Part shown: piece after piece, positions 1 through 697 of the stretch
Numbering within the stretch: the stretch's first letter is position 1
Layout of the letters: every line of letters begins with the position of its first letter
Assembly: GCF_003334335.1 (NCBI RefSeq)
Contig: NZ_QOWQ01000156.1
Origin: Escherichia coli
Lineage (GTDB): Bacteria > Pseudomonadota > Gammaproteobacteria > Enterobacterales > Enterobacteriaceae
Reading direction: 5' to 3' (one strand)
Length of the DNA: 697 nucleotides
Notes under the pieces: generated by a model
What the model was told of the DNA's origin: nothing
The model's database searches: none
The model's input: only the letters and a program-made list of their open reading frames with translations
Translations under genes and position numbers: made by a program

Positions 1-697
1 CTGGACCGGCTGGTACAGCAGGGCGGCTTTGACGGGCGGACGCAACGTTATCATTATGACCTGACCGGAAAACTCACGCAGAGTGAAGATGAGGGGCTTA
101 TCACCCTCTGGCACTACGATGCGTCGGACCGCATCACGCACCGGACGGTGAACGGCGACCCGGCAGAGCAGTGGCAGTATGATGAGCACGGGTGGTTAAC
201 CACCCTCAGCCATACCAGTGAAGGCCACCGCGTGTCGGTCCACTACGGCTATGACGATAAAGGCCGCCTGACCGGCGAACGCCAGACGGTGGAGAACCCG
301 GAGACGGGGGAACTGCTGTGGCACCATGAGACCGGACATGCGTACAACGAACAGGGGCTGGCAAACCGCGTCACGCCGGACAGTCTGCCGCCGGTGGAGT
401 GGCTGACCTACGGCAGCGGCTATCTTGCGGGCATGAAGCTGGGCGGGACGCCGCTGCTGGAGTTCACGCGCGACCGCCTGCACCGTGAGACGGTGCGCAG
501 CTTCGGCAGCATGGCAGGCAGTAATGCCGCATATAAACTGACCAGCACATACACCCCCGCAGGCCAGTTACAGAGCCAGCACCTGAACAGCCTGGTGTAT
601 GACCGTGACTACGGGTGGAATGACAACGGCGACCTGGTGCGCATCAGCGGCCCGCGACAGACGCGGGAATACGGCTACAGCGCCACGGGCAGGCTGG
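1..697 (+). CDS. rhs: Rhs-family YD-repeat core protein, internal fragment (5' and 3' partial; codon phase 0 from nt 1, last complete codon ends at 696)
   Basis: Seen in sequence: frame +1 is open across all 232 codons, while frame +2 hits TGA at nt 59-61. The translation carries repeated YD-repeat motifs: RYHYDLTGKL (aa 16-25), LWHYDASDRI (36-45), WQYDEHGWL (58-66), VHYGYDDKGRL (80-90), LVYDRDYGWNDNGDL (198-212), EYGYSATGRL (223-232). Third codon positions are G/C-biased. Established knowledge: this motif and spacing define the Rhs/YD-repeat shell, and the peptide matches my recollection of the E. coli Rhs core. Paralog (rhsA/B/C/D-like) not resolvable without alignment, so the symbol is generic. 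Confidence 0.93.
   Translation, partial: MDRLVQQGGFDGRTQRYHYDLTGKLTQSEDEGLITLWHYDASDRITHRTVNGDPAEQWQYDEHGWLTTLSHTSEGHRVSVHYGYDDKGRLTGERQTVENPETGELLWHHETGHAYNEQGLANRVTPDSLPPVEWLTYGSGYLAGMKLGGTPLLEFTRDRLHRETVRSFGSMAGSNAAYKLTSTYTPAGQLQSQHLNSLVYDRDYGWNDNGDLVRISGPRQTREYGYSATGRL

What the first reader, a model, noticed from the sequence alone, without database searches (positions are those of the whole stretch)
1..697. GC-rich composition, atypical for an enterobacterial chromosome
By hand count the first 60 nt are about 60% G+C, and the rest looks similar, with strong G/C preference at third codon positions (ctg, ggc, acg, cgc, ccg dominate). Rhs cores are known to be markedly more GC-rich than the roughly 51% E. 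coli background, while their C-terminal tips and downstream regions are AT-rich. That pattern is taken as evidence the core was acquired from a higher-GC donor. If the host is enterobacterial, this window should stand out as a compositional island.
Basis: partly seen in the sequence, partly recalled or inferred. Interest (0 to 1): 0.3.

Follow-up and report, generated by a model that had tools for sequence, protein, structure and literature searches.

The report
GC-rich E. coli Rhs core segment
This 697-base stretch is an internal piece of an Escherichia coli Rhs toxin "core" gene, and its 63% G+C content really does stand out from the 51% genome around it, but this is a feature of Rhs elements already described in the 1990s.

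Summary
The window is 63.3% G+C (its first 60 nt are exactly 60.0%) and GC3 is 78.9% in the single open frame (+1). It is 100% identical to "RHS element core protein" genes of E. coli, at the rhsE locus (yncH-vgrG-rhs-ydcD), codons 665-896 of 1,407. In 330 kb sampled from the same chromosome (50.7% GC), no 697-nt window and no gene reaches these values. About one third of the excess comes from the amino-acid content of the YD repeats. About two thirds comes from G/C-ending synonymous codons that do not follow E. coli usage. The predicted sharp drop exists (63% to 36%), at the PxxxxDPxGL core/tip junction, but it lies about 1.03-1.09 kb beyond the window. Inside the window the composition is uniform. 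The "higher-GC donor" reading remains an inference. It fits several results: divergence between subfamilies kept GC high, cores within one Citrobacter genome differ by more than 10 GC3 points, and core GC3 does not track host GC3. However, no donor was found, and every credible relative is enterobacterial. Verdict: real, correctly interpreted, already known, low interest.

The parts
1..697 (+). Internal fragment of an Rhs core ORF in frame +1: codons 665-896 of the 1,407-codon 'RHS element core protein' at the rhsE locus of E. coli (RhsD-E subfamily, clade I). Uniformly GC-rich: 63.3% GC, GC3 78.9%.
   Evidence: Open frame and composition. 100% identity to E. coli RHS core genes. Position in the H10407 gene (L001 20001-20697 within CDS 18009-22232). 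RHS_core profile positions 669-899 of 1261. 100% to K-12 rhsE, 91.8% to rhsD, 77.4% to rhsA/B/C.
55..156 (+). YD (RHS) repeat unit, aa 19-52
   Evidence: Pfam RHS_repeat PF05593 i-E 0.0014. TIGR01643 YD_repeat_2x over aa 19-58.
178..282 (+). YD (RHS) repeat unit, aa 60-94
   Evidence: Pfam RHS_repeat PF05593 i-E 0.00018.
616..696 (+). YD (RHS) repeat unit, aa 206-232, cut by the window end; a weak match
   Evidence: Pfam RHS_repeat PF05593 i-E 0.014.

Best explanation
SHOWN: the window is codons 665-896 of a 1,407-codon Rhs polymorphic-toxin gene of E. coli. The gene sits at the rhsE locus, directly downstream of a T6SS vgrG gene, and is followed by ydcD and ISAs1/H-repeat transposase genes. 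It encodes YD repeats. By sequence homology to the solved Rhs effector Tse5, these form part of the beta-cocoon wall that encloses the C-terminal toxin. The window's 12.6-point GC excess over the genome has two parts. About 4.4 points come from what the protein is made of: rich in Gly, Thr, Tyr, His, Arg and Asp, and poor in Lys, Ile, Phe, Met and Ala. About 8.2 points come from synonymous choice of G/C-ending codons, at GC3 78.9% against 56.3% expected for the same protein with E. coli usage. T-ending codons are nearly absent, including GGT, CGT, ACT and GCT, which established knowledge lists among the preferred codons of highly expressed E. coli genes. The GC-rich block spans the whole core (63.8%). 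It ends abruptly at the PxxxxDPxGL junction, where the AT-rich tip (40.7%) and ydcD (27.1%) begin. INFERRED: the synonymous component is a historical legacy. The clade I core lineage acquired its composition in a GC-favouring background before, or independently of, its residence in E. coli. It has been kept similar among the several copies per genome and is losing GC only slowly. The AT-rich tips and their partner genes are separate modules of different origin, recombined onto the conserved core end.
For: Identity and context: (full-length protein 2,768.8 bits against a curated cut-off of 2,000). Homology to Tse5 residues 571-801, E=1.6e-23. Outlier status. Split between amino-acid and synonymous parts, with simulation z=7.3. 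N3 composition G 38.8, C 40.1, A 9.5, T 11.6% against background 29.5/26.6/17.6/26.3. Change-points at L001 18093 (51% to 66%) and 21729 (63.3% to 35.9%), next to the motif at 21753-21782. All five K-12 cores are 61.3-63.3% GC with tips at 36.5-41.3%. Evidence for a legacy origin: at the 58 synonymous third-position differences between this window and rhsA, both copies remain 64-67% G/C, with 18 G<->C swaps and 0 A<->T swaps, so the subfamilies diverged under a GC-favouring regime. Three clade I cores in one Citrobacter youngae genome have GC3 71.6, 83.0 and 80.4%. Across 16 loci core GC3 does not track flank GC3 (Spearman -0.20, p=0.46), and the excess ranges from -2 to +26 points. So the present host does not set the value, and no uniform family-wide force does either. 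Polarised changes since the RhsD/RhsE split lean toward GC loss (S>W 19, W>S 8, p=0.052). [quoted passage not shown]
Against: No donor was identified. The genome scan found clade I relatives only in Enterobacteriaceae with 50-57% GC flanks. The apparent non-enterobacterial hits that I checked are mis-binned E. coli DNA. The scan's two peptide patterns were narrow, so it could not have found distant high-GC relatives. Jackson et al. 2009 (PMC2935791) argue that rhs is an ancient, largely vertically evolving enterobacterial family, and that loci at positions 1, 5 and 6 predate E. coli. A recent import is therefore unlikely. The polarised-substitution test is underpowered (27 events). Its implied equilibrium GC3 of 0.67 has an approximate 95% interval of 0.42-0.82, which falls only just short of the current 0.83. 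The RhsE lineage alone shows no bias (6 against 4).
Confidence: 0.65

Rival explanations
1. The GC-richness is actively maintained inside enterobacteria rather than inherited. One route is GC-biased gene conversion among the several nearly identical core copies per genome, which are classic recombination hot spots. Another is selection for GC-rich core DNA, for example to keep the core free of H-NS-type silencing that targets the AT-rich tips.
For: Cores are multi-copy (median 5 places per genome) and paralogous cores are near-identical (rhsA/B/C give the same 77.4% match; PMC2935791). 14 of 16 clade I loci in six enterobacterial genera are GC3-richer than their flanks despite 60-70% amino-acid identity, a divergence at which synonymous sites are probably saturated (my inference). 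The RhsE lineage shows no net GC loss (6 S>W against 4 W>S). Serratia clade II core is 67.7% against a 46.4% tip (PMC2935791).
Against: The excess is very uneven, from -2 to +26 GC3 points, and differs by more than 10 points among copies in one genome. A uniform force would not produce that. From general knowledge, reported bacterial gBGC effects on GC3 are a few points, not about 22. Pooled polarised changes lean toward GC loss (19 against 8). No direct evidence of conversion bias was obtained.
Confidence: 0.2
2. The GC excess is just a consequence of the protein sequence: YD-repeat proteins need Gly, Arg, Asp, Thr and Tyr, whose codons are GC-rich.
For: Gly 11.6%, Thr 9.9%, Arg 7.8%, Tyr 6.5% and His 5.2% are 1.4-2.5 times background. 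Lys, Ile, Phe and Met are 0.2-0.4 times background. GC2 is 46.1% against 41.1%. The same protein with E. coli codon usage would already be 55.1% GC.
Against: That explains only about 4.4 of the 12.6 points. Observed GC3 is 78.9% against 56.3% expected (5,000 simulations, sd 3.1, maximum 66.4, z=7.3). Homologous segments with the same repeat architecture range from 55.8% to 71.0% GC.
Confidence: 0.03
3. The codon bias reflects translational selection in a highly expressed E. coli gene.
For: Several favoured codons (CTG, CCG, GGC, CGC, GAC, AAC, CAC, ATC, CAG) coincide with E. coli optimal codons (the optimal-codon list is from established knowledge).
Against: Optimal codons that end in T or A are avoided: GGT 0/27, CGT 3/18, ACT 0/23, GCT 0/10, GTT 0/10, TCT and TCC 0/15, and GAA only 40%. 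Non-optimal G-enders are enriched: ACG 52%, GGG 26%, CGG 22%, GAG 60%. The bias follows base composition, not tRNA preference. From general knowledge, rhs genes are poorly expressed in laboratory E. coli.
Confidence: 0.02
4. The window is not an outlier because the host is itself a roughly 60% GC organism.
For: None.
Against: 100% identical copies lie in many complete E. coli chromosomes. 330 kb of one such chromosome is 50.7% GC.
Confidence: 0.01

Closest known systems
E. coli Rhs elements, RhsD-E core subfamily (Hill laboratory nomenclature; clade I of Jackson et al. 2009, PMC2935791)
   Same: 100% identical to K-12 rhsE over the part K-12 retains, and 91.8% to rhsD. Same locus neighbours (yncH, ydcD, yncO, H-repeat/ISAs1). 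Same architecture: a GC-rich core of about 3.8 kb, the PxxxxDPxGL junction, then an AT-rich tip.
   Different: Nothing of substance. The source strain carries the intact vgrG-rhs version of the locus, whereas K-12 carries a 5'-deleted pseudogene.
T6SS-delivered Rhs cocoon effectors with solved structures (P. aeruginosa Tse5, PDB 8cp6/9i9y; Photorhabdus Rhs, PDB 7q97; Tse15, PDB 8uxt)
   Same: The window's 232 residues align end to end with Tse5 residues 571-801 (E=1.6e-23) and with other Rhs shells. A vgrG gene lies immediately upstream.
   Different: The relationship is distant and rests on sequence only. No structure was predicted here, and the E. coli protein's toxin tip (Pfam DUF6973) is unrelated to theirs.
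Compositionally atypical genomic islands attributed to horizontal transfer
   Same: Atypical GC and codon usage, sharp boundaries, adjacent IS elements, and presence/absence variation among strains.
   Different: Most E. coli islands are AT-rich, whereas this one is GC-rich and is joined to an AT-rich module. The family appears old in Enterobacteriaceae (PMC2935791), and no donor is known.

Membership tests
Rhs element core protein (NCBIfam NF041261 RHS_core; E. coli clade I) | YD/RHS repeats | tested here: met
   TIGR01643 E=9.8e-5 in the window. Pfam RHS_repeat hits, best i-E 1.8e-4. Six stretches in the full protein, E=9.9e-48.
Rhs element core protein (NCBIfam NF041261 RHS_core; E. coli clade I) | Full-length match to the curated equivalog model above its cut-off | tested here: met
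   The parent gene in H10407 scores 2,768.8 bits against a cut-off of 2,000, covering profile positions 1-1261. The window alone scores 484.7 bits because it covers only positions 669-899.
Rhs element core protein (NCBIfam NF041261 RHS_core; E. coli clade I) | Core ends in the hyperconserved PxxxxDPxGL motif, followed by a variable C-terminal tip | tested here: met
   PIQVIDPMGL at aa 1249-1258, followed by a 149-aa tip. Rhs_assc_core TIGR03696 over aa 1181-1258. This lies outside the window.
Rhs element core protein (NCBIfam NF041261 RHS_core; E. coli clade I) | GC-rich core joined to an AT-rich tip and downstream region | tested here: met
   Core 63.8%, tip 40.7%, ydcD 27.1%. Change-point 63.3% to 35.9% at L001 21729. 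The same holds for K-12 rhsA-E.
RhsD-E core subfamily | Much closer to rhsD/rhsE than to rhsA/B/C (subfamilies differ by about 22-29% according to Wang et al. 1998, recalled from memory; the paper is not held here) | tested here: met
   100% to rhsE, 91.8% to rhsD, 77.4% to rhsA, rhsB and rhsC.
T6SS Rhs polymorphic toxin system | Genetic linkage to vgrG and a small downstream partner (immunity) gene | tested here: met
   vgrG (TIGR03361, 624 bits) ends 66 nt upstream. ydcD overlaps the rhs stop by 17 nt. An immunity function for ydcD is inferred, not tested.
T6SS Rhs polymorphic toxin system | Cocoon fold, autoproteolysis, toxin delivery and toxicity | not testable with these tools
   There is only sequence homology to solved cocoons. 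No structure prediction or experiment was done.
Horizontally acquired island from a higher-GC donor | Composition and codon usage atypical for the host | tested here: met
   0/6,497 windows and 0/200 genes reach its values. Synonymous bias z=7.3.
Horizontally acquired island from a higher-GC donor | Closest relatives lie in a higher-GC lineage (an identifiable donor) | tested here: inconclusive
   All credible relatives are Enterobacteriaceae, and the odd MAG hits that I checked are E. coli contamination. The search patterns were too narrow to reach distant clades.
Horizontally acquired island from a higher-GC donor | Ongoing amelioration toward host composition | tested here: inconclusive
   S>W 19 against W>S 8, p=0.052. 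Implied equilibrium GC3 0.67 (approximately 0.42-0.82) against the current 0.83.

The most novel reading that the evidence does not exclude
The GC-richness of clade I Rhs cores is not a fading relic. It is actively maintained in enterobacteria, by GC-biased gene conversion among the multi-copy cores or by selection for a sharp GC/AT contrast. That contrast would keep the core transcribable while xenogeneic silencers hold the AT-rich tip and orphan modules in reserve. The compositional step at PxxxxDPxGL would then be a functional feature of the toxin-swapping mechanism.
Probability: 0.12. Interest if true: 0.45.

Novelty: already known. Interest (0 to 1): 0.08.

Why it matters
It matters little as a discovery. 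The GC-rich core and AT-rich extension of E. coli Rhs elements have been textbook material since the Hill laboratory's work in the 1990s. The practical value is modest:
- The window is a clean positive control for compositional scans.
- The GC step is a reliable marker of the core/toxin-module boundary when annotating polymorphic toxin loci.
- The split found here (about one third amino-acid content, two thirds synonymous bias) and the large copy-to-copy variation in GC3 within single genomes slightly sharpen a question that is still open: where did the composition come from?

Tried and rejected
1. The primary paper for the acquisition argument (Wang, Zhao and Hill 1998, PMC107404) is not held. 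Three further literature look-ups gave only passing mentions. I therefore re-ran its logic on the data.
2. The protein homolog search returned mostly partial E. coli entries and only a few other enterobacterial genera.
It cannot speak to distant high-GC relatives.
4. Apparent hits in Akkermansia, Lentisphaerae, Oscillospiraceae, Collinsella and Frankia looked like cross-phylum transfer. The two I checked are 99.4-99.6% E. coli over the whole contig, so I rejected them as mis-binning or contamination.
5. The antisense 95-aa ORF at 196-483 has no support. It is the expected by-product of high GC3 on the coding strand.
6. The window has no Rfam match, no tandem repeat and no inverted repeat, and only one chance-level 14-nt direct repeat.
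7. Translational selection and amino-acid content alone were both considered as sole causes and rejected.
8. The polarised-substitution test is too small to decide between decay and maintenance.

Full report

Yes. The window is 63.3% G+C and its first 60 nt are exactly 60.0%. Frame +1 is open over all 232 codons, while the other five frames carry 2-16 stops. GC at codon positions 1, 2 and 3 is 64.7, 46.1 and 78.9%. The commonest codons are CTG (18), GGC (18), GAC (12), ACG (12), CAG (11), ACC (10), CGC (9) and CCG (7). In 100-nt windows the composition stays between 56 and 70% with no trend. A two-segment likelihood test finds no change-point inside the window (LRT 3.5).

**2. What is it and where does it sit?**

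- The window is 100% identical to genes annotated "RHS element core protein" in many complete E. coli chromosomes. 3,864 of 5,426 complete genomes have a match, with a median of five places per genome.
- It matches NCBIfam RHS_core positions 669-899 of 1,261 (E=6e-145) and contains Pfam RHS/YD repeats.
- In ETEC H10407 it is nt 20001-20697 of locus L001, which is codons 665-896 of a 1,407-codon gene (18009-22232). A T6SS vgrG gene precedes that gene, and ydcD, yncO and two ISAs1/H-repeat transposase genes follow it. The surrounding genes are yncH on one side and pptA on the other. This is the rhsE locus of K-12.
- The full protein passes the curated RHS_core cut-off (2,768.8 against 2,000 bits) and carries the Rhs-associated core domain at aa 1181-1258.
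- The window is 100% identical to K-12 rhsE over the part K-12 retains, 91.8% to rhsD and 77.4% to rhsA/B/C. That places it in the RhsD-E subfamily, which is clade I of Jackson et al. 2009 (PMC2935791).
- Its 232 residues align end to end with residues 571-801 of the solved P. aeruginosa Rhs effector Tse5 (E=1.6e-23). I infer that it encodes part of the beta-cocoon wall.
- Nothing else is in the window: no Rfam match, no tandem or inverted repeats.

**3. Is it a compositional outlier in its host?**

I sampled 330 kb from seven places on the H10407 chromosome. The sample is 50.7% GC.
- None of 6,497 overlapping 697-nt windows reaches 63.3% (maximum 61.8%).
- None of 200 gene proxies reaches GC3 78.9% (mean 55.3, sd 10.0, maximum 71.3).
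- None of 777 in-gene 232-codon windows does either (maximum 73.3%).

Genes flanking the locus average 52.2% GC and 56.8% GC3. The rhs gene as a whole is 61.3% and 71.6%, and vgrG is 55.6% and 67.9%.

**4. Where is the predicted boundary?**

GC rises from 51% to 66% at L001 18093, just inside the rhs start. It falls from 63.3% to 35.9% at L001 21729, right at the sequence coding PIQVIDPMGL (21753-21782). The core is 63.8% GC (GC3 76.7%), the 447-nt tip 40.7% (GC3 28.7%) and ydcD 27.1%. The step is real and sharp, but it lies 1,032-1,085 nt beyond the end of the window. All five K-12 elements show the same pattern, with cores at 61.3-63.3% and tips at 36.5-41.3%.

**5. What makes the window GC-rich?**

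I re-encoded the same 232 residues with the synonymous usage of the 200 background genes. That gives 55.1% GC and GC3 56.3% (5,000 simulations: sd 3.1, maximum 66.4). The observed GC3 is 7.3 sd higher.

So of the 12.6-point excess over the genome, about 4.4 points come from the protein's make-up. Gly, Thr, Tyr, His, Arg and Asp are enriched 1.3-2.5 fold, while Lys, Ile, Phe, Met and Ala are depleted. The other 8.2 points or so come from synonymous choice.

Third positions are G 38.8, C 40.1, A 9.5 and T 11.6%, against 29.5, 26.6, 17.6 and 26.3% in the background. The bias is not translational selection. Preferred E. coli codons that end in T or A are avoided (GGT 0/27, CGT 3/18, ACT 0/23, GCT 0/10, GTT 0/10, GAA 40%). 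Non-preferred G-ending codons are enriched (ACG 52%, GGG 26%, CGG 22%, GAG 60%) (the list of preferred codons is from established knowledge).

**6. Does the "higher-GC donor" reading hold?**

It cannot be proved here, but three results bear on it.

First, at the 58 synonymous third-position differences between the window and rhsA, both copies are still 64-67% G/C. There are 18 G<->C swaps and no A<->T swaps. The subfamilies therefore diverged under a regime that favoured G/C. [quoted passage not shown] I could not read the paper here.

Second, a scan of one genome per species found clade I relatives only in Enterobacteriaceae: E. albertii, Citrobacter, Trabulsiella, Phytobacter, Lelliottia, Enterobacter, Yokenella, Superficieibacter, Atlantibacter and Pseudocitrobacter.
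- Their homologous segments range from 55.8% to 71.0% GC (GC3 65-90%), against flank genes of 52-60%.
- 14 of 16 non-redundant loci are GC3-richer than their flanks, but the excess runs from -2 to +26 points.
- The excess does not correlate with flank GC3 (Spearman -0.20, p=0.46).
- Three copies in the single genome of C. youngae have GC3 of 71.6, 83.0 and 80.4%.

So neither the present host nor a uniform family-wide force sets the value. Lineage history does. This agrees with Jackson et al.'s remark that rhs of one clade in different genomes differ in base composition.

Third, I polarised synonymous changes since the RhsD/RhsE split over the whole core, with RhsA and RhsC as outgroups. There are 19 changes from G/C to A/T against 8 the other way (p=0.052). 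The implied equilibrium GC3 is 0.67 (approximately 0.42-0.82) against 0.83 today. This leans toward slow decay but is underpowered, and the RhsE lineage alone shows 6 against 4.

Against the donor idea, no donor lineage was found, although the scan's patterns were too narrow to find a distant one. Jackson et al. also regard rhs as an ancient enterobacterial family, with the oldest E. coli loci predating the species. My best reading is a historical legacy that is decaying slowly (about 0.65). Active maintenance by biased conversion or by selection is the main rival (about 0.2).

**7. Comparison with the known, and verdict**

Every defining feature of an E. coli Rhs core that could be tested is met, whether in the window or in its parent gene. 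The compositional pattern is the one by which Hill and co-workers defined the core and core-extension (PMC2935791). The feature is already known. Interest is low (0.08).

Noticed in passing
window 196 (L001 20196; K-12 locus L009 2903): The deletion that makes K-12 rhsE a pseudogene ends inside this window. K-12 lacks L001 15767-20195 (4,429 bp), which holds vgrG and the first 2.19 kb or so of rhs. The two flanks overlap by 3 bp at the junction. The window must therefore come from a strain with the intact vgrG-rhs locus, not from K-12.
   Followed up: yes
L013 (1-3462), L014 (1-3574); also L016, L042, L043: Short contigs in public MAGs or assemblies labelled Lentisphaerae, Akkermansia muciniphila, Oscillospiraceae, Frankia tisae (433 bp, coverage 0.8) and Collinsella carry this Rhs core. 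L013 and L014 are 99.6% and 99.4% identical over their full length to E. coli vgrG-rhs. These are mis-binned or contaminant E. coli DNA, not cross-phylum transfer. L016, L042 and L043 were not checked.
   Followed up: partly
L017, L020, L033 (Citrobacter youngae ATCC 29220): One genome carries three clade I cores whose homologous segments have GC3 of 71.6, 83.0 and 80.4%. This copy-to-copy spread suggests different residence times or origins.
   Followed up: partly
L030 (Trabulsiella guamensis), L018, L022/L024, L025: Some clade I cores have almost no GC3 excess over their flanks (-2 to +6 points), as if fully ameliorated. E. coli, E. albertii, Superficieibacter and two of the C. youngae copies keep +16 to +26 points.
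   Followed up: partly
L001 21783-22698 (downstream of the window): The C-terminal tip of the H10407 Rhs protein matches Pfam DUF6973 (E=6e-11). The following gene ydcD (YdcD family, 27% GC) overlaps the rhs stop codon by 17 nt. This is the usual toxin/immunity arrangement, but neither function is characterised.
   Followed up: partly
window 196-483, minus strand: There is a 95-aa antisense ORF. It is the expected by-product of very high GC3 on the coding strand, and nothing supports it as a gene.
   Followed up: partly
L001 15834-17942: The upstream vgrG gene is also somewhat GC-enriched (55.6% GC, GC3 67.9%) relative to flanking genes (52.2%, 56.8%). The compositional island may therefore start at vgrG, with a dip to 48% in the last 300 nt before rhs.
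   Followed up: no
L035 (Yokenella regensburgei, 2192-2791): This is the most extreme relative: its homologous core segment is 71.0% GC with GC3 90%. The contig is only 2.8 kb, so its context is unknown.
   Followed up: no
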